In this document: positions 7,069 to 28,870 of the stretch, piece by piece
Layout: every line of letters starts with the position of its first letter
Position numbering within the stretch: position 1 is the first letter of the stretch
Virus genome (UHGV): UHGV-0096747
Reading direction: 5' to 3' (one strand)
Source of the DNA: a virus
DNA: 32,457 nucleotides
The notes under the pieces: model-generated
What the model was told of the DNA's origin: nothing
The model's input: only the letters and a program-made list of their open reading frames with translations
The model's database searches: none
Position numbers and translations under genes: made by a program

Positions 7069-7135
7069 CCTGTTTTGAGCGAAGAGCGGACCTGAGATTG
7101 TGGTATGCTAATTTATGGGGAGCAGGTCAATTGTA

Positions 7136-7828
7136 TTAGTTATCTTTTTGCTTTTCTTTATCCCATTTCTTTGCAGTGGTCTGATACCACTCTTCACGTG
7201 CTCGTTGTTCCTCGGCTCTGTCACTTGAATTATAGTTGTCTGTTTTAATTTTTTTGCTTCCCTGGGAAATCGGCCTCCAGTCTTCTCTAATCTTTTTCAT
7301 CTGCTCAGCTATCTGTGTCATTGGACTCCTTGCACCTAAGTAGCTAACCCCCTCGAAAGAAGCCATATCATAAGAATACTCATTCCGCTCTCTTTCAGTT
7401 GAGCCCGGCTGTTTAGACCAGCTAATACTAACAGAATAAACTTGATCTTTAATCTGGTCATACTTACAAAGACTGCTGTTAAGGGAATGGCCGTTTTTCA
7501 ATACGCTAACCTTGCTAAATGGTATACCTTCATTTTTTCTATGTTCTGCATTAACCAGTGGGGGATTAAATCCGACTTCAATATCATAGGCTGGGGCATT
7601 TCCGGTATTAGCAATATTGATATCAAAATAAAAAGCAGCCCAAGAATTTGGTTCAAGAGTCACAACGACATGAGGTTGAACTGATGCGTCAACCATCCTT
7701 TTTGTCTCGTCTGCTAATAGCCTTGTTACTCTCCACAAGAAAAATGTAGCAACTGCTGTTAGCAATGCTGCCAAAGCGGAGATAAGTGTACTTACTGTGT
7801 TTATATGCTCTGCGATAAATTCGATCAT
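7136..7828 (-). CDS. Hypothetical single-pass membrane protein, AT-rich cargo at the Z/fun position
   Basis: 230-aa ORF with ATG start and AAGGA Shine-Dalgarno 7 nt upstream; N-terminal hydrophobic helix (VSTLISALAALLTAVATFFLW) then a charged soluble domain; AT-rich unlike the flanking tail genes. Confidence 0.6.
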   Translation of the reverse strand: MIEFIAEHINTVSTLISALAALLTAVATFFLWRVTRLLADETKRMVDASVQPHVVVTLEPNSWAAFYFDINIANTGNAPAYDIEVGFNPPLVNAEHRKNEGIPFSKVSVLKNGHSLNSSLCKYDQIKDQVYSVSISWSKQPGSTERERNEYSYDMASFEGVSYLGARSPMTQIAEQMKKIREDWRPISQGSKKIKTDNYNSSDRAEEQRAREEWYQTTAKKWDKEKQKDN

Positions 7829-8319
7829 GAGTTGTCCTTGGGGGCGTACTAATTGTTTTCAATACTAAAATAGCGCCGGGCTTGAAAAATTGCACACTTA
7901 TGGTTCGATTTACCTCAACAGTTAAGGCTTCAACTTCCCCCATGCACCTCACCCAGCCCAAGACTGTATGAGGTCTGACAAAGAACTTCCTGACACTTGA
8001 AAACGAGGCAACGGCTAGGGTTTCTCGTAGGGCAAGGATTGAATACGAAGCCTGTATATTGCTCCGCGAACGCTGCTGAGGGCAGTTTAAATGTTGGGCG
8101 TTTATGTAGCCTTTCACTCACCAGCATGAGTTCAATGTCTGTGAGTTACCGACAACAATATAAAGGGGGTGGCATCATCATATATCCAAGCTAGAGTCAA
8201 ATCCTATAACTGGTTTTATGATCAGTGTCAATTGTTTGATTATTGAACGTTTACGAAGCAGCACGGGAGCCATATAACTAATGGGCAGGTATAAGCCTGT
8301 ATCACGAGGAATCAGTAAA

Positions 8320-8499
8320 ATGGCTGATGATAAGACCAAAATCGGTACCCCTGACAATGATTTAATAAGTATCAAACAGGATTACGAGAGACGTGATTGG
8401 GCTGAAAAGTTTGGAGTTAGCGAGGCCAAACTTGTTCAAGCCGTACAGGCTGTAGGTCATTCGGCTAAGAAAGTACAGGCATGGCTTAAAGACCATTAA
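8320..8499 (+). CDS. Small hypothetical protein (59 aa), resembles the DUF3606 family
   Basis: Internal ATG at 8320 with GAGGAA Shine-Dalgarno 8 nt upstream (the track ORF starts earlier at 8281); WAEKFGVSEAKLVQAVQAVGHSAKKV matches my memory of the DUF3606 pattern; followed by a terminator. Confidence 0.5.
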   Translation: MADDKTKIGTPDNDLISIKQDYERRDWAEKFGVSEAKLVQAVQAVGHSAKKVQAWLKDH

Positions 8500-8505
8500 T
8501 ATATG

Positions 8506-8528
8506 AGCGCCTTTCTAGGCGCTTTTTT
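8506..8528 (+). terminator. Rho-independent terminator between the two small cargo ORFs
   Basis: AGCGCC-TTTCTA-GGCGCT hairpin followed by TTTTTT. Confidence 0.5.
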
Positions 8529-8551
8529 CTTTGTCCTTTGGGAGATGATTT

Positions 8552-8830
8552 ATGGCTAATAATTTATTTATTACTTACGACCTCATTAAAACGAAAGATT
8601 ATGCGGCTGTGTATGATGCAATTAAATCTTTAGGAAATTGGGCTTTAACAACTGAATCGAACTGGTATGTTAACTGTAGTTACTCTGCCGAGGATGCAGC
8701 CAAAATTGTGAGGGCGGTCATGGATAGTGATGATAAGCTTATTGTTGTAGACGCAACCAATAACTCAGCTTATTGGTACAATCTCTCAGATGAAGTTAGT
8801 AACCAAATTCTGACTGAGTGGAACAAGTAA
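8552..8830 (+). CDS. Small hypothetical protein (92 aa)
   Basis: ATG with GGGAG Shine-Dalgarno upstream; AT-rich; alternating hydrophobic strand-like and helix-like segments (LFITYDL, KLIVVDA, AYWYNL); no family assigned. Confidence 0.5.
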   Translation: MANNLFITYDLIKTKDYAAVYDAIKSLGNWALTTESNWYVNCSYSAEDAAKIVRAVMDSDDKLIVVDATNNSAYWYNLSDEVSNQILTEWNK

Positions 8831-8856
8831 TTAAAGGGGGTGGGTACCCCCTTTAA
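8831..8856. terminator. Perfect 10-bp inverted repeat (TTAAAGGGGG / CCCCCTTTAA), likely bidirectional terminator closing the cargo island
   Basis: Palindrome with 6-nt loop immediately after the stop of the 92-aa ORF. Confidence 0.4.
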
Positions 8857-9049
8857 TTCAGAAACTATCATGATTGAAACATTAAATATACTGGGTTAAT
8901 TCTTTCATCCTTGCTCCCTTGCTATATGTCCTGAAAGCGTCCTTTTTAGCCTTCTGCTCAGTATGTCCGGTAATGGCACAGAGCGGACTGTCAGATTAGG
9001 CTTTACTCTGTGCCATAGATATGTAATCTCACACCAGAGCTTATACAAC

Positions 9050-13024: not shown

Positions 13025-13372
13025 TCAACTCACAGGGATGGTTAATGAAAGTGGCTGGCCGGTGTCGTTGTGCTGGCCGGTTAACGTGACCGTCATTCGC
13101 CCGTCAAAACTGCGCTCAGTGGTGACGGATGACAGGGTGACGCGGGGTTCCCATTTCAGCACCGCCATGTAACAGGCGACCTTAATCTGCAACTCAAGCG
13201 CCGGGGTCTGCGGCTGGTCAATCATTGATGCCAGCAACGAGCCGTAATCACGACGCATCACCCGTGAGCCGACCGGTGTGCGCAGGATATCGCCGATACT
13301 CTGGCTGATATGCTCAAGGTCAGTGACAGTCAGGCCATCACTGCGATTCATTCCGAGATAACGCGCTGTCAT
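13025..13372 (-). CDS. W: Baseplate protein W
   Basis: 115 aa as in P2 gpW; position. Confidence 0.88.
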   Translation of the reverse strand: MTARYLGMNRSDGLTVTDLEHISQSIGDILRTPVGSRVMRRDYGSLLASMIDQPQTPALELQIKVACYMAVLKWEPRVTLSSVTTERSFDGRMTVTLTGQHNDTGQPLSLTIPVS

Positions 13373-14004
13373 AAAGGACTCCCGGTTGTGCCGCCGCTGT
13401 CGCCGGGGTGTTTATGGGTATGCAGTACCTTACCGTTTGATGAGAGTTCACCGCCGGTGTGTTCAATGTTGCCGCGCATCGTCCCGCCCTTCTGCACTTC
13501 CAGCATGCCGGTAGTCAGTTTGTTGGTGCAGACCACTTCCGGTGTGTCCAGGGTGATGCGGGTTGATGCTTTCACCATAACCACCGGCACCGTGGCAGTA
13601 ACAGAATCAGAAGCCATCACGCTGGCCGTTTTAACTCCGCTTACCGTGAGCGCACTGGTTTCAGGTTCATACTCAATCACCGCCCCGTCAGGGAAACGGA
13701 TATGCAGGGCATCCGCCGACGCAGACGGCGCGGGGTTATCGCCGGAATAAATCCCCGGCAGAACGAACGCCGTGTCGAGTTCACCGCCCACGGCCAGAAT
13801 CAGCACCTGTTCCCCCACGGAAGGTGCCCACCATGTGCGCGAACGTCCGGCGCGATGGGTCAGCCACTGAAGCCAGTCGGTGCACATGCCGCCGGTCTGC
13901 ACACGGCAGCGACCGGCGTTAAGGTCGGTTTCGACGATAATGCCGGTGCGAATCATGTTGCGCAGTGCGCGCGCGAGTTCCTGAATATTTGCGAGAGTGT
14001 TCAT
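13369..14004 (-). CDS. V: Baseplate spike protein V
   Basis: 211 aa from the ATG at 14002..14004 (MNTLANIQ), matching P2 gpV length; the track ORF extends 6 codons further upstream. Confidence 0.85.
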   Translation of the reverse strand: MNTLANIQELARALRNMIRTGIIVETDLNAGRCRVQTGGMCTDWLQWLTHRAGRSRTWWAPSVGEQVLILAVGGELDTAFVLPGIYSGDNPAPSASADALHIRFPDGAVIEYEPETSALTVSGVKTASVMASDSVTATVPVVMVKASTRITLDTPEVVCTNKLTTGMLEVQKGGTMRGNIEHTGGELSSNGKVLHTHKHPGDSGGTTGSPL

Positions 14005-14087
14005 GCATGTGAGATTGCACAATATATAAAAGTTATGCTATCTGGATTCATTTGTAGAACTACCAGACAACATTCAAGGAGAGCGTA

Positions 14088-14873
14088 ATGGTCAGCTATA
14101 ATGTGACTAATGTGTGGGGGCTAATCGTTTTTTTCCTTTGTAGCTTTGCAGTATTAGCATTTTTTAGCTTTGGTAAAAGTAACCTTATGAGGCTTATTGC
14201 ACATTATTTCAATTTTGGATATTCAGACAAAAAATTAAAAAGACTTGACCGCGAGTGGCGCGACATTCAACTATTTAAAATAATTAACGGAATCAATGTA
14301 TCAGGCATTGAAAATGTGAGAATGATACAGCAGGGACTGATTGATGGAAAACTAAAAACATCGTATTTTTTCCTTACTCGCATCTGGGGTGACATAACAA
14401 AAACACCACACATAATTAAAACAATAATTGTAATTCTGTCCAGTATTTTTTACATTCTCCTCGCATGTTACATACACAACGAACAATCCGTTATAGTAAG
14501 GGATGCCATAGGCATACCATATAAAAACATGATGTACTATGTTTATAGTGACAAAGTTCTTTTATCCTTCAAAAATAAAGCAGTTGAATTTAATAAAACT
14601 TATAGCCTTGCCGATTGCAAGAGACTGCAAAACGTATTTATAAAAGACACACTTCCTGAAATCGCCTGCAATAAGCTCTTACAGCTAAACGAGGAGGACT
14701 CCGAATGGTTAAGCCAGGAGATTAAAGATAATAACAGTCACAAAAAAGCATTATCAATACTATCCCTCGTCTATTTCACTTCAGGTCTGGTTATATTCCT
14801 GTCATATACAAAATTCTTTTACGCCAATAAGAAGGTTTTAGAATACAAAGCATCAAATAAAAATCACTCATAA
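14088..14873 (+). CDS. orf30-like AT-rich membrane protein, antisense to the late operon
   Basis: 261 aa (786 bp, the size I recall for P2 orf30); ATG with AGGAG Shine-Dalgarno; three hydrophobic helix-like segments; very AT-rich; opposite strand to flanking V and S. Confidence 0.7.
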   Translation: MVSYNVTNVWGLIVFFLCSFAVLAFFSFGKSNLMRLIAHYFNFGYSDKKLKRLDREWRDIQLFKIINGINVSGIENVRMIQQGLIDGKLKTSYFFLTRIWGDITKTPHIIKTIIVILSSIFYILLACYIHNEQSVIVRDAIGIPYKNMMYYVYSDKVLLSFKNKAVEFNKTYSLADCKRLQNVFIKDTLPEIACNKLLQLNEEDSEWLSQEIKDNNSHKKALSILSLVYFTSGLVIFLSYTKFFYANKKVLEYKASNKNHS

Positions 14874-14878
14874 ACCTC

Positions 14879-14915
14879 TAAACATTGAGCGACCAGCATG
14901 GCCGCTCAATGTTTA
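14879..14915. terminator. Bidirectional terminator between convergent orf30-like gene and S
   Basis: 13-bp perfect inverted repeat (TAAACATTGAGCG / CGCTCAATGTTTA) with 11-nt loop, T-rich flank. Confidence 0.5.
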
Positions 14916-14944
14916 ATTGCGCATCAGCCTCTGCCTGGATAAAA

Positions 14945-15397
14945 CTAACGCTCAAGGTGAGCCAGGATAATCTCTTCAATCATCTGCACATCCTCACCGG
15001 TAAAGCCGAGCAAAGGACGCGCCGGATAATCAATTGTCTTACCGTCTTTCCGGGTTTCTTCCGACAGACCGAACTGATGCACACTGGCGATTTTCGGCGA
15101 CTTCCCGCCGTAAAATTCCATTGATGCCTGTTCCGGGCTGGCGCGGATATGCAAAAAACGACTGGTGATAAGTTTCGCAAACATTTTTCGCTTAACACGA
15201 CCGGTCTTTTTTCTGGCGCTCTGCTGCTGGCGTGGCGCGTAGGGTGTGCCGTCCGGGGCTTTCTGTGCCATCACCCGACGCTGCTGACTCTGCCGCAGAC
15301 GCTTCGCCAGCTCTGCACTCAGCCGCCGACGCCCTGACGGTGACAGCGACTCAATAAGTCCGGTCAGCCGGTCTTCAAAACGCTTAAACTCATTCAT
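14945..15397 (-). CDS. S: Tail completion protein S
   Basis: 150 aa as in P2 gpS; position. Confidence 0.88.
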   Translation of the reverse strand: MNEFKRFEDRLTGLIESLSPSGRRRLSAELAKRLRQSQQRRVMAQKAPDGTPYAPRQQQSARKKTGRVKRKMFAKLITSRFLHIRASPEQASMEFYGGKSPKIASVHQFGLSEETRKDGKTIDYPARPLLGFTGEDVQMIEEIILAHLER

Positions 15398-24368: not shown

Positions 24369-24698
24369 TTAAAACTTGATGGTATTTAATAAAACGCGAA
24401 AAGCCACACACTTTGTAGAAATAGCAGAAACCTTTGCCTTATCCTGCTTCCTTGCCTGAGACTCAAAATCATCACCTGTTATAATATCAAAAAGTTCGTC
24501 ATGAAAAACCCTTAACTGAGCTTCAATATCCTTTCTTTTCCATCGCGACTCTTGCTGAACATATATTGTTATAGTCGAATTTATTATATTTAAACTCGCC
24601 TTAATTCTCATTTCCTCTTCTAAGAGAGACTTCGCCGACTTTTTTGAATACCCCTTCAACCAATAACTAATAGCATCAGAACGCAACTCATTAACCAC
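24369..24698 (-). CDS. Hypothetical protein, fourth ORF of the old/tin-position cargo operon
   Basis: 109-aa ORF with GTG start and GGAGAG Shine-Dalgarno 10-11 nt upstream; AT-rich; overlaps the preceding ORF by 43 nt in another frame. Confidence 0.4.
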   Translation of the reverse strand: MVNELRSDAISYWLKGYSKKSAKSLLEEEMRIKASLNIINSTITIYVQQESRWKRKDIEAQLRVFHDELFDIITGDDFESQARKQDKAKVSAISTKCVAFRVLLNTIKF

Positions 24699-25030
24699 AT
24701 CTGAAATACTCTCCAGGAGTTTGGTTTTAGTCTCCCGTTTAACAACAGAACGCCAATGGACTTTATTATATGCAAATGCGGCAGTGGCCGCAAAATAGTA
24801 CTAATAAGAGCCGTAATAAGTGATGACGATAAAATAGGCGTTTCAGGTGGATGCCGTATTGCATCAACAATATTAGAACTAGCTACTTCAATTATCGTAT
24901 TAATATCCTTAACTGCATGAGTAGCACTCAGGCCTTCTTCATTATCCTTCTTGATAAAAAGCAAACTAGGTGAGAACTCACCAGAACCCTCACCTAAAAT
25001 AAACATCGGATTATTCGACTGTTGGCTCAT
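24656..25030 (-). CDS. Hypothetical protein, third ORF of the cargo operon (C-terminal half may be out of frame)
   Basis: 124-aa ORF with ATG start overlapping the end of the upstream ORF by 20 nt; AT-rich. Confidence 0.4.
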   Translation of the reverse strand: MSQQSNNPMFILGEGSGEFSPSLLFIKKDNEEGLSATHAVKDINTIIEVASSNIVDAIRHPPETPILSSSLITALISTILRPLPHLHIIKSIGVLLLNGRLKPNSWRVFQMWLMSCVLMLLVIG

Positions 25031-25400
25031 ATCGTTTCGAATTAAACTGCGCCTCGTTGATATATTGTTCTATTTTCTTTTTATAGAAATCAAAATCAGG
25101 ATTAGTATATTTAATTTCAATTTTAGACAATAACTCATTGGCATGCATATATCCATATTTTACCATGCCCGCAAAGCCCTCCACCAAAAAAGACGAACCA
25201 TATCCTTCGACATCATCATCGATGACTATCTGCAATTTTTCCCCAGCAGAAAGCAAGCTTAGACGCTTTCTTAAGAAATCTTCTCTAAACCGTTCACCAC
25301 TTGCTGTCCCGTCAGTACGATAGCGGCCTCTGGGAACTTTCGAGAACTCTGAACCAATCTTCAATGTTTTCATGAGGCTAGCAACCAATCTAGTAATCAT
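25011..25400 (-). CDS. Small protein (129 aa), possible STAS-like fold, translationally coupled to the upstream ATPase gene
   Basis: The ATG at 25398..25400 overlaps the upstream TGA (ATGA coupling) and has a GGAG Shine-Dalgarno; the track ORF starts earlier at a TTG. Segment IVIDDDVEGYGSSFLVEGF loosely resembles the STAS core. Confidence 0.5.
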   Translation of the reverse strand: MITRLVASLMKTLKIGSEFSKVPRGRYRTDGTASGERFREDFLRKRLSLLSAGEKLQIVIDDDVEGYGSSFLVEGFAGMVKYGYMHANELLSKIEIKYTNPDFDFYKKKIEQYINEAQFNSKRYEPTVE

Positions 25401-26527
25401 AGCTTTGTACTCCATACTATAAGTGTACCACAAACAGGCAGAGCGAAGCTTACTGATTTTACCTCAGATTTTTTATCATGTTGTGAGTATTTGTAAAGGC
25501 CTTTACCACTCATAATTGAAAGATAACCTTCACCACGTTGCTTTATGAACTCCAACAAGTCCTGCAAGCCTTTACCCCGATCCTCTTCCCCCGTACTAGA
25601 ACGTTTGATTTCAACTGCAGCCTTTAACAATTGTTCATCTCTTTTTCGTTCTGCAAGCGGTAACTTCGAAAGGTAATTTAAAACCTTTTCATGGAGTTTA
25701 GATTCCGGCAAAGACCCAGGAATTGTAATACCTTGATCATAAAACACTACTTTTATTATTCTACTTGAACTATCATATGAAGCAGTTAAATACCATTTTT
25801 TATCATGCTCATGATAACCTTTATTATCTGGATAAGCATGATGAACAACATTTGTAATAGCTTCGGACAAACCACTATATAGGAAAGTCCATTTACCAAG
25901 GTCTTCTCCCACAATACGCTTTATTTCTTTTTTTAAATGCTGAGTTTTTTCATCATCATGTAAATGTCCTTTCATATACTTAACAAAACGGATATTACTT
26001 GGTTCCTTTTCTTTTTCAAGCTCAAAACTATCTTTATTTCTAAATAAGTCAAAAAAACCCAACTCATCAAATTGAGAGAGTATGTTTTTATTCCACGTTT
26101 TCACTTTTGGGCGAATGCGTTGCCTTACCGAATCATCCCATTTTGATAATTCCGCGGTCAATACCAATGCGGCAGATGCAGAAATATATTCAATCTTCGA
26201 AAAGTCAACAAAACAAAGACGGTAACATTGGTTATTAAATATCTTCCGCCCCGTAAGATGCCTAATCGTTTGTATGGCTTGCATTGTACGATGGTAATTA
26301 CTTGAAAAGTTCATCTTTTTAGGTAAAGTAAGGAAAAGGTCTCTATTTTTCCTTATTTCGCAATTTAATCCATCTTTAATTTGCGCATTTATCCAACGAT
26401 TTATTTTTGATGCTTTTGAAATAGGATTAATCTTAGAGCGCCCTGCAGATACAACATCTCTTCCTGTACGATGTAAATAGGATCGTAAAATATCTCTCTC
26501 TCTTTCTCTCTTGGTTATTTTTTTCAT
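25397..26527 (-). CDS. GHKL-family ATPase or kinase-like protein with N-terminal STAS-like segment, first gene of the cargo operon
   Basis: 376 aa; ATG with strong AAGGGGGG Shine-Dalgarno; C-terminal motifs EAITNVVHHA (N-box-like), FYDQGITIPG (G1-like) and DRGKGLQDL (G2-like); N-terminal VDFSKIEYISASAALVL resembles the STAS phospho-site region; AT-rich. Confidence 0.55.
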   Translation of the reverse strand: MKKITKRERERDILRSYLHRTGRDVVSAGRSKINPISKASKINRWINAQIKDGLNCEIRKNRDLFLTLPKKMNFSSNYHRTMQAIQTIRHLTGRKIFNNQCYRLCFVDFSKIEYISASAALVLTAELSKWDDSVRQRIRPKVKTWNKNILSQFDELGFFDLFRNKDSFELEKEKEPSNIRFVKYMKGHLHDDEKTQHLKKEIKRIVGEDLGKWTFLYSGLSEAITNVVHHAYPDNKGYHEHDKKWYLTASYDSSSRIIKVVFYDQGITIPGSLPESKLHEKVLNYLSKLPLAERKRDEQLLKAAVEIKRSSTGEEDRGKGLQDLLEFIKQRGEGYLSIMSGKGLYKYSQHDKKSEVKSVSFALPVCGTLIVWSTKL

Positions 26528-26752
26528 CTTCCCCCCTTAGAAAACTGACGCATTTAACAGCTTTTTTATCATTTTTTCAATCAGTTGTATCAATTTTTGA
26601 TGTGCGCATCAAACTTCTCAAACCCACACAAACACAAACTATCTCGCCCATCCCCTCTAGCCAACCTCAAAACTGTACATAATATGCTCTTTTTCCCGCA
26701 AGGTTATGCGCGAGCCACTCATTCAGCATTAACTTATCATTACAAAACATAA

Positions 26753-28870
26753 TCAGATTGGGCGTTGGCTAGCCCTTCCTTTGAATACCATCAATTCCCG
26801 TGAGTAATCTTTTAATCTCTTCCTAAGAACTGTCATCACCTCAGCATCATTCCAACTAACCACCCCTATATCAATCAAATCCAACACTGCTGCAGCGTGC
26901 TCAGAAGGTGTGGGAGCCGGTAACGAAGTATCACCACCAGTGAGCTTTCCACAGTTATTGACAGGACTCCGAGGCGCGGCGATGCCGCTTTTTAAAGTCA
27001 AAGGCTCAACGACCGGAACTTTCGGCACAATGCGCCAGTCCGTCGTTCTGGTGATATGAATATGACGCGCGCCGAGATGCGGCGCGTAAATGCCGACCAC
27101 TCTCTCGACTTCTTCCTCGTACTCGTTAACGTCATCCGACGGGCTACGGGCGACTCTGACAGTCTGGCAATCACGCGGAACATTTGCCCCACCCTGCGCG
27201 CTGATATACAACGCAAAATCACCACTGTCTGCGGCGGCACGTGCAGCCTCAACGCGTTCGTCAAACTCATCAGCAATGCTGACGCCGCGAGGCAATTTGC
27301 GTAGTTCACGGTAAGCCCCCATTGTCGGCAGGCCAACCGTTTTAAATTGCGGGATGCGCCACGTTGACGCCCATGCGGTAACAGCCGCAGCAGTATCTTT
27401 CAGCGGCCTGCCGGTATCGTTATCGAGCTGACCATCCAGTGCATAGCCATCGATGTTTTTTGAGATGTATTTCGCGATATACCCCGCAGCACCGCCCCGG
27501 TTAAGATGTTTTGCCTGAAAACGGTTTCGCGCGGCTCCTCTTTCGTCGCCATCCTCTTTGAGCGCATAGCGACGCATGATTTCGATAATCTGGTTACGCT
27601 GGCGTGGATTACAAAAAAGCATCATATGCCAGTGCGGCGTTCCGTCGTGGTGTGGCTCGACGACTCGCAAACCGTAGACCTGTAAATCATTATCCTTGAA
27701 TGCCGTGCGCATCAGGCTCCAGATACGACAGAGATAACGCTGCGCATCCTTTGGATTAAATGCCTCATCGTTCCAGCCGTGATTAAGCTGAACGGTTTTA
27801 CTTTCGCCTTTTCTGACCTGACGAGTCGGGTGATACTTTGACGGCGCGGTCAGCGTGATAAACATCCCCACATCACCCTCTGCGGCGGCGTAACGCTCAA
27901 TACCGGCAATGGTGTTCATCAGCTCCATCCGGCGAATTTCAGGATTAGAAATACTGCCCATCACCTTACTGATAAGGTCGATGCGCTCGCCGGTTTCCCT
28001 GTTTTCAAGGTCACACGATTTAAGAAATTCCAGATTTGCCTGGCGGCGCGCACGCACATCACGAATGGCGTGTTTACTGGCATAAGGAGAACGGTCTTTA
28101 TTGACCTCCCCGACAGCTATCAGTAACGCTTCATGCCAGCGCATACGCTGGCCTTTAAGCTGATGAGTCCACCACTCATCGTTAAACAGACGGGCAATGG
28201 CAGAATATGCCTGCCTCGTGGTCATCTGCCCTTTACGGTATTTTTTCCAGTAGAGAGGGGAAATATTGAAAGCACGTGCAGCGCCAGCAACATGACCATA
28301 GAGGTGAGCCTGCGCCTCATCCGTAAACAGCGATTCTTTTTCGCCATGCGCATCCACCCAGGCATCGCTGAGTTCCTCATACATCATGAAAAGCTGCGAT
28401 GAGATACGGGCAGCAAACTTTTTCAGCTCCTTGTCATTCATTCCCGGCAGGCGCGCATAGTGGTCACGCTCTGCCAGAAACAGTAACGACGCGTCGGTGT
28501 TCATTTCATGGCGCTGATTCACACGCTCAATGCGCGGCCATAAACGACGCTGAAAAGTGGATGTGAGGAAATAAAACCCGTGTACCGGGCTTTTATTGCG
28601 CCGGATGTAGTCATAGCGTGAAGTAAACAGCGAGCGCAAAAAGTAAGGCAGGCGGTTAATCGTGGATAAAACACCTTGCACCTGACGCATCTCGTCACGT
28701 GTAAGGGGTCTTTCGCGCCCGACGGCCTCGCGTGGCGCGTTCCATGCATAAGCACCGGTAAACGCCTTACCGGTGCCTGCAGCAAATGCTGAAGGAGGGA
28801 CAAAACGCCCGGAGGCTTTAACGGCCATATGAGCCAAAAGCCTCTGAACAACGCCTGCTGAGTTGCTCAA
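26753..28870 (-). CDS. A: Replication initiation protein A (rolling-circle nickase)
   Basis: About 700 aa in the P2 A position upstream of the old/tin island; HUH-like GTPHWHMML and tyrosine motif YIAKYISK. The track start is a TTG; an in-frame ATG at 28828 is an alternative. Confidence 0.85.
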   Translation of the reverse strand: MSNSAGVVQRLLAHMAVKASGRFVPPSAFAAGTGKAFTGAYAWNAPREAVGRERPLTRDEMRQVQGVLSTINRLPYFLRSLFTSRYDYIRRNKSPVHGFYFLTSTFQRRLWPRIERVNQRHEMNTDASLLFLAERDHYARLPGMNDKELKKFAARISSQLFMMYEELSDAWVDAHGEKESLFTDEAQAHLYGHVAGAARAFNISPLYWKKYRKGQMTTRQAYSAIARLFNDEWWTHQLKGQRMRWHEALLIAVGEVNKDRSPYASKHAIRDVRARRQANLEFLKSCDLENRETGERIDLISKVMGSISNPEIRRMELMNTIAGIERYAAAEGDVGMFITLTAPSKYHPTRQVRKGESKTVQLNHGWNDEAFNPKDAQRYLCRIWSLMRTAFKDNDLQVYGLRVVEPHHDGTPHWHMMLFCNPRQRNQIIEIMRRYALKEDGDERGAARNRFQAKHLNRGGAAGYIAKYISKNIDGYALDGQLDNDTGRPLKDTAAAVTAWASTWRIPQFKTVGLPTMGAYRELRKLPRGVSIADEFDERVEAARAAADSGDFALYISAQGGANVPRDCQTVRVARSPSDDVNEYEEEVERVVGIYAPHLGARHIHITRTTDWRIVPKVPVVEPLTLKSGIAAPRSPVNNCGKLTGGDTSLPAPTPSEHAAAVLDLIDIGVVSWNDAEVMTVLRKRLKDYSRELMVFKGRASQRPI

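What the first reader, a model, noticed from the sequence alone, without database searches (positions are those of the whole stretch)
14088..14915. AT-rich antisense membrane-protein gene embedded in the late operon
A 261-aa ORF on the opposite strand to all surrounding tail genes, between V and S, is very AT-rich. It has three hydrophobic helix-like segments and is closed off from S by a 13-bp perfect inverted-repeat terminator. It matches the position and the 786-bp size I recall for P2 orf30, whose function is unknown to me. A membrane protein expressed from the prophage in this position could mediate superinfection exclusion or abortive infection.
Basis: partly seen in the sequence, partly recalled or inferred. 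Interest (0 to 1): 0.5.

Follow-up and report, generated by a model that had tools for sequence, protein, structure and literature searches.

The report
Phage P2 orf30 membrane-protein cargo gene
This is the long-known but still uncharacterised orf30 gene of phage P2, an AT-rich cargo gene for a three-helix inner-membrane protein that sits backwards between two tail genes; it probably protects the lysogen from other phages, but no function has been shown.

Summary
Bases 14088-14873 (+) hold a 261-aa ORF with 32-35% GC, antisense between tail genes V and S. It has three hydrophobic helices and is followed by a strong hairpin at 14879-14915. The region is 99.3% identical to phage P2, where the gene is annotated orf30, 'nonessential'. 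So the gene is already known, but its function is not.

New here:
- It is a real gene under selection. 75 of 76 close alleles are intact at exactly 261 codons, with overall dN/dS 0.46.
- It belongs to a family of about 20 divergent lineages and is a remote relative of Pfam DUF6216.
- Relatives at only 24-39% identity keep the same antisense V|S position in Enterobacter, Serratia and Sodalis P2-like prophages.
- Intact copies survive in decayed prophages, including E. coli B.
- The same slot holds other cargo in other E. coli prophages, including a RelA/SpoT toxSAS-like candidate defence gene.
- The predicted topology is N-out/C-in, with an invariant cysteine pair in the periplasmic loop.
- A confident AF2 model matches no known fold.

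No expression or phenotype evidence is available. My best guess is a prophage-expressed envelope-level anti-phage protein (about 0.35). A 2026 preprint I could not open may bear directly on this.

The parts
14005..14944 (.). The 940-bp orf30 cassette. This is the whole V-S intergenic region, which replaces the 66-bp intergenic of 'empty' P2-like phages such as Wphi.
   Evidence: The W-V/S-R query spans 1959 bp in empty genomes and 2833 bp in orf30 genomes. Wphi's sequence diverges from the window immediately after the V start codon and rejoins at the S stop codon. GC is 0.32-0.40.
14005..14087 (.). The 83-bp V-orf30 divergent control region. It holds the pV late promoter and its activator (Ogr) binding site at about 14046-14073, and presumably the unidentified orf30 promoter.
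   Evidence: Positions were transferred from the P2 annotation: L001 1647-1674 is the activator site and L001 1605 the V transcription start. The region is 98% identical across alleles whose orf30 coding sequences differ by 10-14%. Blocks are conserved even in 31-39%-identity lineages. No + strand sigma-70 match of at least 9/12 lies here. By eye there is only a weak extended -10-like TGcTATCT at 14036-14043.
14076..14081 (+). Shine-Dalgarno AAGGAG, 6 nt upstream of the ATG.
   Evidence: Read directly from the sequence.
14088..14873 (+). orf30 coding sequence, 261 aa. It is an allele of P2 orf30, in PHROG 2407 and a remote relative of DUF6216.
   Evidence: Of 76 close alleles, 75 are intact. 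dN/dS is 0.46.
14112..14174 (+). TM1 (aa 9-29). It follows an uncharged 8-residue N-terminus, predicted periplasmic.
   Evidence: Kyte-Doolittle scan and charge count. AF2 helix 7-28.
14175..14405 (+). Loop 1 (aa 30-106), a predicted cytoplasmic helical domain and the most conserved part of the family. It carries the motif D59-x-Q61-L-F-K-x-x-N-G68-I-N70-V...D76...G87.
   Evidence: 14 K/R against 7 D/E. Lowest column entropy, 1.97 bits. G68 and G87 invariant, Q61, N70 and D76 nearly so. AF2 helices 30-40, 48-67, 74-86 and 91-94. dN/dS 0.32.
14406..14480 (+). TM2 (aa 107-131).
14481..14744 (+). Loop 2 (aa 132-219), a predicted periplasmic domain with a four-stranded beta-sheet and two short helices. 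It holds the family-invariant cysteines C177 (14616-14618) and C194 (14667-14669). A disulfide between them is inferred, not shown.
   Evidence: AF2 strands 140-173, helices 174-179 and 189-198. C177 and C194 are invariant in 24 sequences. Net charge about +1. dN/dS 0.26.
14745..14810 (+). TM3 (aa 220-241), part of one long helix spanning aa 202-260.
14811..14870 (+). Basic C-terminal tail (aa 242-261), predicted cytoplasmic, with nearly invariant N247 and K254. It weakly resembles the juxtamembrane motif of HK97 gp15/YebO.
14879..14915 (.). Hairpin between the convergent orf30 and S genes. It is a putative bidirectional intrinsic terminator for orf30 on the + strand and for the O late operon on the - strand.
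   Evidence: P2 annotation. No T-run follows the stem.
13369..14004 (-). Flank: baseplate spike gene V, first gene of the V operon.
14945..15397 (-). Flank: tail completion gene S, last gene of the O operon.

Best explanation
SHOWN. The 940-bp AT-rich cassette at 14005-14944 is the phage P2 orf30 moron. It is a self-contained accessory unit inserted antisense between tail genes V and S, with its own strong ribosome-binding site and a hairpin shared with the convergent O operon. It encodes a 261-aa protein that selection maintains. The protein belongs to a fast-evolving family, remotely related to DUF6216, that has held this same slot in P2-like phages of E. coli, Enterobacter, Serratia and Sodalis.

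INFERRED, structure. The protein is an inner-membrane protein with three transmembrane helices and an N-out/C-in topology. It has a conserved ~77-aa cytoplasmic helical domain. Its ~88-aa periplasmic beta-rich domain is probably stapled by a C177-C194 disulfide.

INFERRED, function; this is my commitment. The prophage expresses it independently of the late operons, possibly at a low or H-NS-repressed level. It protects the lysogen against other phages at the cell envelope, most likely by interfering with genome entry across the inner membrane. That would make it a functional analogue of P22 SieA or HK97 gp15 rather than a cell-killing effector.

Confidence. Identity and anatomy: about 0.98. 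An anti-phage role of any kind: about 0.5. The specific entry-block mechanism: about 0.3-0.35. The confidence field gives the figure for the functional mechanism.
For: Identity: 99.3% to P2 orf30; PHROG 2407 at E 1e-147.

A real gene under selection: 75 of 76 close alleles are intact, all at 261 codons, giving 57 nucleotide and 48 protein variants. Overall dN/dS is 0.46, with 0.32 and 0.26 in the two soluble domains.

Family: 35 cluster representatives, about 20 of them full length at 19-34% identity and colinear. 10 of 24 members hit DUF6216, and P0027 passes its gathering score over the full length.

Fixed synteny: V(-)|orf30-like(+)|S(-) holds in nearly all of 80 IMG/VR loci (a few are cut off by a contig end) and in L004, L015 and L020. 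Protein identity falls to 24-39% while V stays at 64-85%. P22 sieA shows the same pattern: sequence types below 30% identity at one locus (PMC10883804).

Accessory status and a cargo slot: orf30 is in 464 of 5426 E. coli genomes, and 1671 carry the W-V/S-R block. Alternative occupants are a 359-aa RelA_SpoT protein matching PADLOC candidate PDC-S33, a 347-aa unknown protein and the R18C-type 246-aa protein. Burkholderia P2-likes carry other genes there, such as a DNA methylase (PMC3091744 and PMC13366799).

Retention after prophage decay: an intact copy sits next to a truncated S gene in the E. coli B defective prophage, and the same truncation appears in 5 IMG/VR loci. In Serratia, one copy sits next to a GpR fragment and others lie in an ASCH-ecotin island. 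Enterobacter has orphan chromosomal copies.

Topology: the positive-inside charge pattern, the invariant Cys pair in the loop predicted to be periplasmic, and an AF2 model with pLDDT 84 and pTM 0.74.

Precedent: HK97 gp15 is a moron inside a tail operon with its own terminator. It is expressed from the prophage and blocks genome injection (PMC3594210). A weak motif-level similarity links Orf30 TM3 plus tail to gp15/YebO (hhalign P 0.018; 0 of 120 block shuffles reach the score).

Unverified lead: a preprint on H-NS-silenced anti-phage activity mentions DUF6216, 'P2-like prophage' and BL21.
Against: - No expression data. No + strand sigma-70-like site of at least 9/12 lies upstream of the ATG. 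The conserved intergenic blocks can be explained by the pV promoter and Ogr site alone.
- No hit to any PADLOC model for Orf30 or six relatives. No Pfam hit for Orf30 itself.
- No sequence relation to P22 SieA, SieB or lambda RexB.
- No significant fold match in PDB or BFVD.
- The gp15/YebO similarity has only 2.6% hhalign probability.
- Most E. coli P2-type prophages lack the gene.
- Papers on P2 defence hotspots do not name this locus or gene.
- No H-NS high-affinity motif lies in the cassette.
- From my own knowledge, decades of P2 genetics ascribe exclusion phenotypes only to old, tin and fun(Z).
- A cytoplasmic domain more conserved than the periplasmic one would fit an effector or signalling role as well as an entry block.
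Confidence: 0.35

Rival explanations
1. Abortive-infection-type membrane effector. Orf30 stays inert in the inner membrane. Its conserved cytoplasmic domain senses an infection cue, and the protein then depolarises or permeabilises the membrane. The infected cell dies before phage release. This works like lambda RexB or other membrane-disrupting defence effectors.
For: The context arguments are the same as for the best explanation. The cytoplasmic loop is the most conserved region, as expected for a sensor or effector core. The three TM helices form a helical bundle, and the top non-significant fold neighbours are channel or claudin-like membrane proteins such as LRRC8, CorA/MRS2 and TARP. AT-richness is compatible with silencing of a potentially toxic gene.
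Against: No homology to RexB or to any PADLOC Abi model. No partner sensor gene sits in the P2 cassette. The gene is intact and stable in nearly all alleles, including decayed prophages, which is less expected for a self-toxic effector. The unreadable preprint that may concern this family contains 'adsorption' 4 times and 'abortive infection' 0 times; this is very weak evidence.
Confidence: 0.15
2. Lysogenic-conversion gene unrelated to phage defence. An inner-membrane protein benefits the host in another way, for example as an immunity protein against membrane-acting toxins (pore-forming colicins, CDI or T6SS effectors), or as an envelope-stress or colonisation factor.
For: The gene is retained in decayed prophages and occurs as orphan chromosomal copies in non-phage contexts, so the benefit goes to the host whether or not the phage is alive. 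Among close alleles, amino-acid change concentrates in TM1 and TM3, where dN/dS is 1.24 and 1.37 and 71% of TM1 codons vary. That is the pattern expected if specificity is read inside the membrane, as for pore-forming-colicin immunity proteins (my own knowledge). One family member gave a noise-level hit to the colicin-K immunity family, E 0.11.
Against: The dN/dS values above 1 rest on 29 and 22 codons, have no significance test, and can reflect relaxed constraint on hydrophobic anchors. No significant similarity to any immunity family was found. No toxin gene accompanies the gene. Where other cargo at this slot and in P2 hotspots has been characterised, it is mostly anti-phage (PMC9122126).
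Confidence: 0.2
3. Accessory function in P2's own lytic cycle. Given its position next to the lysis and tail genes, it could be a membrane protein that tunes lysis timing, tail or baseplate assembly at the membrane, or exclusion of the satellite P4.
For: It lies between the lysis/tail-completion operon and the baseplate operon. It shares the 83-bp control region with the Ogr-activated pV promoter, and that region is 98% conserved.
Against: It is annotated nonessential in P2. It is absent from most viable P2-like phages, which have a 66-bp intergenic region instead. It is antisense to the late operons. It is kept intact in prophages that have lost their head, lysis and S genes and in chromosomal contexts with no phage.
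Confidence: 0.05
4. A non-functional ORF that is open by chance in AT-rich junk DNA.
For: AT-rich DNA has few GC-rich stop-free constraints, and no promoter was identified.
Against: AT-rich sequence is rich in stop codons, yet the frame stays open for exactly 261 codons in 75 of 76 alleles with dS up to 0.27. dN/dS is 0.26-0.32 in the soluble domains. Full-length colinear homologues go down to 19% identity with invariant G, C and I positions. The AF2 model is confident.
Confidence: 0.01

Closest known systems
Bacteriophage P2 orf30 (AAD03281.1; PHROG 2407)
   Same: It is the same gene. The locus is 99.3% identical in nucleotides, with the same 786-bp length, the same antisense V|S position and the same hairpin. 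The protein differs at 4 of 261 residues.
   Different: The window is not P2 itself. V and S are only about 96.5% identical to P2. The cargo at the other two variable regions differs from P2's old/tin and Z/fun.
Pfam DUF6216 (PF19723), an uncharacterised family of ~270-aa membrane proteins
   Same: The length and three-TM layout match. 10 of 24 Orf30 relatives hit the model colinearly. The Sodalis relative P0027 passes the gathering score (28.9 against 27.3 bits) over positions 10-265 of 270, and it sits at the same V|S slot.
   Different: Orf30 itself gives no Pfam hit at E<=1, so the link is transitive (Orf30 to P0027, E 3e-7). DUF6216 has no known function, so membership does not explain the mechanism.
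HK97 gp15 / E. coli YebO family (moron-encoded inner-membrane superinfection-exclusion protein; PMC3594210)
   Same: Both are morons embedded in a tail-gene region with their own terminator. gp15 is expressed from the prophage and blocks genome injection. The TM helix plus juxtamembrane motif, '(A/T)N..(V/I)...K', aligns weakly with Orf30 TM3 plus tail, including the nearly invariant N247 and K254.
   Different: gp15 has 62 aa and one TM helix, and it is co-oriented with the tail genes. Orf30 has 261 aa, three TM helices and two soluble domains, and it is antisense. The similarity has only 2.6% hhalign probability, so it is a lead and not homology.
[quoted passage not shown]
   Same: Both are prophage cargo genes antisense at the end of a virion-gene block, each with its own expression signals (a promoter annotated for sieA; a ribosome-binding site and hairpin for orf30). 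Both are inner-membrane proteins. Both families have sequence types below 30% identity at a conserved locus.
   Different: No detectable sequence relation, hhalign probability 0.2%. SieA is 164 aa. A function is shown for SieA and not for Orf30.
P2 morons old, tin and fun(Z), and the cargo hotspots of P2-like phages (PMC9122126, PMC13586616)
   Same: All are AT-rich, nonessential, horizontally exchanged cargo at fixed slots in a conserved backbone. PMC3091744 already names the orf30 locus as one of three variable regions.
   Different: Old, Tin and Fun are soluble proteins with demonstrated anti-phage activity. Orf30 is a membrane protein with none shown. Its slot is small, mostly single-gene, and is not analysed in the defence-hotspot papers I could read.

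Membership tests
P2 orf30 / PHROG 2407 | High sequence identity to P2 Orf30 over the full length. | tested here: met
   99.3% nucleotide identity over 1101 bp. 257 of 261 residues identical. PHROG 2407 at E 1.4e-147 over positions 1-261 of 261.
P2 orf30 / PHROG 2407 | Position between V and S, on the opposite strand, followed by the O-operon terminator hairpin. | tested here: met
Pfam DUF6216 (PF19723) | Score at or above the gathering threshold (27.3 bits) against the family HMM. | tested here: not met
   Orf30 itself gives 0 Pfam hits at E<=1.
Pfam DUF6216 (PF19723) | Homology to bona fide members (transitive or profile level). | tested here: met
   P0027 scores 28.9 bits over the full length. 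Orf30 to P0027 by phmmer gives E 3.1e-7 over residues 17-256. 10 of 24 family members hit DUF6216 colinearly.
Moron (independent transcription unit added to a phage operon region; PMC3594210) | Absent from close relatives, atypical base composition, flanked by its own expression signals. | tested here: met
   Empty 66-bp site in Wphi and in most E. coli prophages. GC 0.32-0.35 against 0.55-0.61. Its own Shine-Dalgarno sequence and a downstream hairpin.
Moron (independent transcription unit added to a phage operon region; PMC3594210) | Own promoter, with expression from the prophage. | tested here: inconclusive
   No + strand site of at least 9/12 in 14000-14087. Only a weak extended -10-like element is visible by eye. 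No transcript data are available.
Intrinsic (rho-independent) terminator | G+C-rich stem-loop followed by a U-run. | tested here: inconclusive
   The hairpin is stable (-22.4 and -27.6 kcal/mol, z below -5). The only U-run is 3 U inside the base of the stem, and the scan did not call it. P2 annotates it as 'putative'.
Known anti-phage defence systems (PADLOC-DB v2.0.0) | Match to any defence-protein HMM. | tested here: not met
   0 hits at E<=1 for Orf30. 0 hits at E<=0.01 for six divergent relatives. DefenseFinder and newer libraries were not available.
P22 SieA / SieB superinfection-exclusion proteins | Sequence homology. | tested here: not met
   hhalign of A1 against SieA gives probability 0.2%, and against SieB 0.1%.
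P22 SieA / SieB superinfection-exclusion proteins | Blocks DNA entry of a superinfecting phage when expressed alone. | not testable with these tools
   Needs a phage-challenge experiment.
HK97 gp15 / YebO | Sequence homology. | tested here: inconclusive
   hhalign against a three-sequence YebO/gp15 profile scores 19.7 with P 0.018 and probability 2.6% over 41 columns. The score exceeds all 120 block-shuffled controls, which have mean 13.3 and sd 2.1.
Lambda RexB | Sequence homology. | tested here: not met
   hhalign probability 0.2%.
Inner-membrane protein, N-out/C-in, 3 TM | Three hydrophobic helices with a positive-inside charge distribution. | tested here: met
   Kyte-Doolittle windows and K/R counts: loop 1 +7, loop 2 +1, C-tail +3. 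AF2 helices 7-28, 109-133 and 202-260. The layout is conserved in 24 sequences. No dedicated topology predictor and no experiment were used.

The most novel reading that the evidence does not exclude
Orf30/DUF6216 proteins are a previously unrecognised family of single-gene anti-phage proteins in the inner membrane. They have been resident at the V|S slot of P2-like phages since before the enterobacterial genera diverged. They are normally kept quiet, possibly by H-NS acting on the AT-rich cassette. They work through a new fold, a 3-TM bundle with a disulfide-stapled periplasmic beta domain and a conserved cytoplasmic helical domain. The host retains them after the prophage dies.
Probability: 0.35. 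Interest if true: 0.55.

Novelty: already known. Interest (0 to 1): 0.3.

Why it matters
orf30 is one of the last genes of the model phage P2 with no assigned function. From my own knowledge, it was first described in the mid-1990s.

The gene is common, present in about 9% of complete E. coli genomes, including the laboratory workhorse E. coli B/BL21. If it is a membrane-level anti-phage gene, it would add a new protein family and fold to superinfection exclusion. It would also add a fourth defence locus to the P2 model, and it could affect phage susceptibility of BL21-derived strains and of clinical E. coli.

The comparative data here turn a vague idea into specific experiments. They supply conserved residues to mutate (C177, C194, G68, G87, N247, K254), a predicted topology, natural allele series, and E. 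coli B as a natural single-copy background.

As a finding about this window, however, it is a correct re-identification of an annotated gene.

Tried and rejected
1. Direct annotation. Pfam, NCBIfam and PADLOC gave nothing for Orf30 itself. PHROGs gave only 'unknown function'.
2. Sequence search against PDB with the family profile gave only noise, E>=0.06.
4. Homology to P22 SieA, SieB and lambda RexB was rejected.
5. Promoter search found no convincing + strand site upstream in P2. Scans in Serratia and Sodalis loci found only chance-level numbers of sites.
6. The H-NS high-affinity motif TCGATAAATT (up to 2 mismatches) has no copy in the cassette and is not enriched in the window.
7. The preprint 10.64898/2026.09.05.749240 is the only indexed text that mentions DUF6216 together with 'P2-like prophage'. 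It could not be opened. Only term counts were obtained.
8. Searches for accession numbers and family identifiers in the literature found 0 papers.
9. The search for related loci with the full divergent alignment failed for lack of a conserved stretch. A closer sub-alignment worked.
10. The 'chance ORF' reading and the 'P2 lytic-cycle function' reading were considered and rejected (see the rival explanations).
Full report
OBSERVATION

The window has an ATG-initiated ORF at 14088-14873 on the + strand, 261 aa, 786 bp with the stop. An AAGGAG Shine-Dalgarno sequence precedes the ATG by 6 nt. The surrounding genes are on the - strand. V is 13369-14004 and S is 14945-15397, with W and J upstream and R and the lysis genes downstream. 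GC falls to 0.32-0.35 across the ORF, against 0.55-0.61 on both sides.

A Kyte-Doolittle scan finds three hydrophobic segments, at aa 9-29, 107-131 and 220-241. Six bases after the stop codon lies an inverted repeat, 14879-14895 and 14899-14915. It has 13 perfect pairs, one mismatch and 3 more pairs, with a 3-nt loop. As RNA it folds at -22.4 kcal/mol on the + strand and -27.6 on the - strand, and no shuffle does as well. No T-run follows it, so the consensus scan does not call it a terminator.

IDENTITY

Window 13900-15000 is 99.3% identical to bacteriophage P2 (AF063097 9312-10412). P2 annotates the ORF as orf30, 'nonessential'. It annotates the hairpin as the putative terminator of the O operon, and the 83-bp V-orf30 spacer as carrying the pV late promoter with its activator-binding site. 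The protein differs from P2 Orf30 at four residues.

The window is not P2 itself. V and S are about 96.5% identical to P2, and the two other AT-rich cargo islands carry different genes from P2's old/tin and Z/fun.

WHAT IS KNOWN

The readable literature treats orf30 as a gene of unknown function in one of three variable regions of P2-like genomes (PMC3091744). Other phages carry different genes there: R18C a 741-bp ORF (PMC6823313) and Burkholderia phage AB4 a DNA methylase (PMC13366799). The papers on P2 defence hotspots do not name the gene or this slot. Pfam, NCBIfam and PADLOC give no hit for Orf30, and PHROGs places it in family 2407, 'unknown function'.

IT IS A REAL, SELECTED GENE

I extracted the locus from 76 close relatives (IMG/VR, E. 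coli genomes, P2). 75 are intact, all at exactly 261 codons, with 57 distinct nucleotide alleles and 48 distinct proteins.

Pairwise dN/dS over all alleles is 0.46. By region it is:
- 0.32 in the first soluble loop
- 0.26 in the second soluble loop
- 0.50 in TM2
- 1.24 in the N-terminus plus TM1
- 1.37 in TM3

The last two values rest on 29 and 22 codons and were not tested for significance. The flanking V, S and W genes show dN/dS of about 0-0.26 and five- to ten-fold lower dN. So orf30 evolves much faster than the backbone while staying open.

FAMILY

The word-indexed search found only five clusters. The exhaustive phmmer scan of 1.84 billion representatives found 35, of which about 20 are full-length, colinear proteins of 250-270 aa at 19-34% identity.

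Their alignment (A1) conserves the three TM segments. G68, G87, C177, C194 and I212 are invariant, and Q61, N70, D76, N247 and K254 are nearly so. The first loop is the most conserved region.

Ten of the 24 aligned members hit Pfam DUF6216 colinearly. One of them, P0027 from Sodalis, passes the gathering score over the whole model. Orf30 is therefore a remote, transitively linked relative of DUF6216, which itself has no known function.

STRUCTURE AND TOPOLOGY (INFERRED)

The charge distribution follows the positive-inside rule for an N-out/C-in protein. The N-terminus is uncharged, loop 1 has net +7, loop 2 about +1 and the C-tail +3. This places the two invariant cysteines in the periplasm, where a disulfide can form.

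AlphaFold2 with A1 gives a confident model, with pLDDT 84 and pTM 0.74. It contains:
- TM1
- a four-helix cytoplasmic domain (aa 30-94)
- TM2
- a periplasmic four-stranded sheet (aa 140-173) followed by two short helices that carry C177 and C194
- one long helix containing TM3

GENOMIC BEHAVIOUR

1. Fixed slot. In nearly all of the 80 IMG/VR loci the arrangement is V(-)|orf30-like(+)|S(-); a few loci are cut off by a contig end. This includes Enterobacter-type phages, where Orf30 identity is 31-39% while V is 70-85%. Serratia (L004) and Sodalis (L015) P2-like prophages keep the same slot at 24-25% identity. This looks like long residence with rapid divergence rather than repeated acquisition. 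The same pattern is described for sieA of P22-like phages (PMC10883804).

2. Accessory status. 1671 of 5426 complete E. coli genomes carry the W-V/S-R block, but only 464 carry orf30. Most have a 66-bp intergenic region, as in Wphi. The whole spacer, including the pV region, is exchanged with the gene.

3. A cargo slot. Other E. coli prophages hold different single genes there. These are an antisense 359-aa RelA_SpoT-domain protein that matches the PADLOC candidate PDC-S33, an antisense 347-aa unknown protein, and the sense-oriented R18C-type 246-aa protein.

4. Retention after decay. The defective P2-like prophage of E. coli B has lost the head and lysis genes and most of S, but keeps orf30 intact. 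The same truncation recurs in five IMG/VR loci. In Serratia, one homologue sits next to a GpR fragment in a decayed prophage, and others lie in a two-gene ASCH-homologue island at the same chromosomal site with no phage genes left. Enterobacter has orphan copies among ordinary chromosomal genes. Retention without the phage argues that the benefit goes to the host.

EXPRESSION SIGNALS

The ribosome-binding site is strong, but I found no convincing sigma-70 promoter upstream. The 83-bp spacer is 98% conserved among alleles whose coding sequences differ by 10-14%, and some blocks persist in 31-39%-identity lineages. These blocks coincide with where the pV promoter and activator site lie. A weak extended -10-like TGcTATCT at 14036-14043 is the only candidate I can name. 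The canonical H-NS high-affinity motif is absent from the cassette, so possible H-NS silencing rests on AT-richness alone.

COMPARISON WITH KNOWN EXCLUSION PROTEINS

Profile comparisons show no relation to P22 SieA, SieB or lambda RexB.

HK97 gp15 gave a weak hit. gp15 is the first described moron; it lies inside a tail operon with its own terminator, is expressed from the prophage and blocks genome injection (PMC3594210). I built a three-sequence profile from gp15, a Klebsiella YebO-like protein and E. coli YebO. It aligns over 41 columns with Orf30 TM3 plus its tail, matching the nearly invariant N247 and K254. The score is 19.7, P 0.018, probability 2.6%. None of 120 controls, in which the TM and tail columns were shuffled separately, reached that score (mean 13.3, sd 2.1). 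I treat this as a lead, not as homology.

AN UNVERIFIED LEAD

The only indexed texts containing 'DUF6216' are an unrelated wastewater paper and the September 2026 preprint 'H-NS silences antiviral immunity through 3D chromatin compaction'. I could not open the preprint.

Term counts show it contains:
- DUF6216 once
- 'transmembrane' once
- 'P2-like prophage' four times
- BL21 29 times
- 'adsorption' four times
- no mention of orf30, of the ABC-three-component system or of glycosyltransferase

The ABC-three-component system and the glycosyltransferase are the other two cargo loci of the E. coli B prophage. The preprint may therefore report an H-NS-masked anti-phage phenotype for exactly this gene family. 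I cannot confirm that.

INTERPRETATION

Shown: a known P2 moron encoding a conserved, selected, three-TM membrane protein of a DUF6216-related family. The family is tied to one slot of P2-like phages and is retained by hosts after prophage decay.

Inferred: the N-out/C-in topology, the periplasmic disulfide, and expression from the prophage.

Most likely function: protection of the lysogen against other phages (about 0.5 overall). I favour interference with genome entry at the inner membrane (about 0.3-0.35) over an abortive-infection effector (about 0.15). A non-defence host benefit, such as immunity to membrane-acting toxins, stays open at about 0.2. A role in P2's own lytic cycle is unlikely (about 0.05), and a chance ORF is excluded.

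VERDICT

The finding is accurate, and the object is already known and annotated. Interest is modest. The function is an old but small open question that becomes directly testable with the residues, topology and natural backgrounds listed here, and it may already have been addressed by the preprint.

Noticed in passing
L097 4916-5737 (-) and L004 11085-11879 (-): A second recurrent cargo gene lies between the orf30-like gene and S, convergent with it, in Enterobacter-type and Serratia P2-like phages. It encodes a ~270-aa protein with two N-terminal TM helices. The two copies are homologous (28% identity, E 2e-28) and have no Pfam or PADLOC match. It is absent from P2 and Sodalis. It may be an ancestral partner of the Orf30 family or independent cargo.
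   Followed up: partly
L017 1126-2205 (+); L018 1091-2134 (+); L010 714-1454 (-) and L019 1058-1798 (-): The V|S slot of E. coli P2-like prophages is a small single-gene cargo hotspot. Its alternative occupants are a 359-aa RelA_SpoT-domain (toxSAS/CapRel-like) protein matching PADLOC candidate PDC-S33, a 347-aa unknown protein, and the R18C-type 246-aa protein in the sense orientation. The defence-hotspot papers I read do not describe this slot.
   Followed up: partly
L016 13275-14060 (NZ_CP115968.1, E. coli B): The defective P2-like prophage of E. coli B keeps an intact orf30 allele (WP_000490543.1) beside a 168-bp S fragment fused to a truncated portal gene. It also keeps an ABC-three-component system at the old/tin slot and a GT2 glycosyltransferase at the Z/fun slot. 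BL21-type strains therefore carry this gene.
   Followed up: partly
bioRxiv 10.64898/2026.09.05.749240 (not a sequence location): This preprint on H-NS silencing of antiviral immunity is indexed but unreadable with the tools. It mentions DUF6216 once, 'P2-like prophage' 4 times and BL21 29 times. It may contain direct experimental evidence on this gene family.
   Followed up: partly
window 14745-14870 (Orf30 aa 220-261); L104 204-392; L106 43-276; L107 5262-5549: Orf30 TM3 plus its basic tail (F..AN..V...K) weakly resembles the TM plus juxtamembrane motif of HK97 gp15 and E. coli YebO. hhalign gives P 0.018, and the score is above all 120 block-shuffled controls.
   Followed up: yes
L005/L006 9180-10759; L002 8274-10768; L007 10001-11094: In Serratia, orf30-like genes sit at one chromosomal site between an Asp-Al_Ex transporter gene and ecotin, in three forms. 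One is beside a GpR fragment in a decayed P2-like prophage. One is a bare ASCH + orf30-like island. One is the same island with a fresh P2/186-like prophage integrated next to it. This looks like stepwise domestication.
   Followed up: partly
L021 3968-4759, L022 and L003 1-788: Orphan orf30-like genes (35-39% identity) occur in Enterobacter chromosomes among ordinary genes (ECF sigma factor, MCP chemoreceptors, LacI-type regulator, OMP). No V or S gene lies within 4 kb.
   Followed up: partly
window 24400-27000 and 7100-9000: The window's two other AT-rich cargo islands differ from P2. At the old/tin slot, ORFs 24656-25030, 25011-25433 and 25397-26527 (-) have no close match in the phage collection and no PADLOC hit. 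At the Z/fun slot, the sequence matches P2-EC53 'putative lysogenic conversion protein' at 98%.
   Followed up: partly
window 14088-14174 and 14745-14810: Among close alleles, amino-acid replacements concentrate in TM1 and TM3. dN/dS is 1.24 and 1.37, and 71% of TM1 codons vary. The soluble loops are at 0.26-0.32. This could be relaxed constraint on membrane anchors or diversifying selection on intramembrane contacts. It was not tested for significance or for recombination, and the alleles look mosaic (for example L014 against L012 and P2).
   Followed up: partly
window 14004 (L001 1605): The P2 GenBank record places the V-operon transcription start on the first base of the V start codon. That would make the V mRNA leaderless. 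The ORF listing also offers an in-frame TTG 18 nt upstream, at 14022.
   Followed up: no
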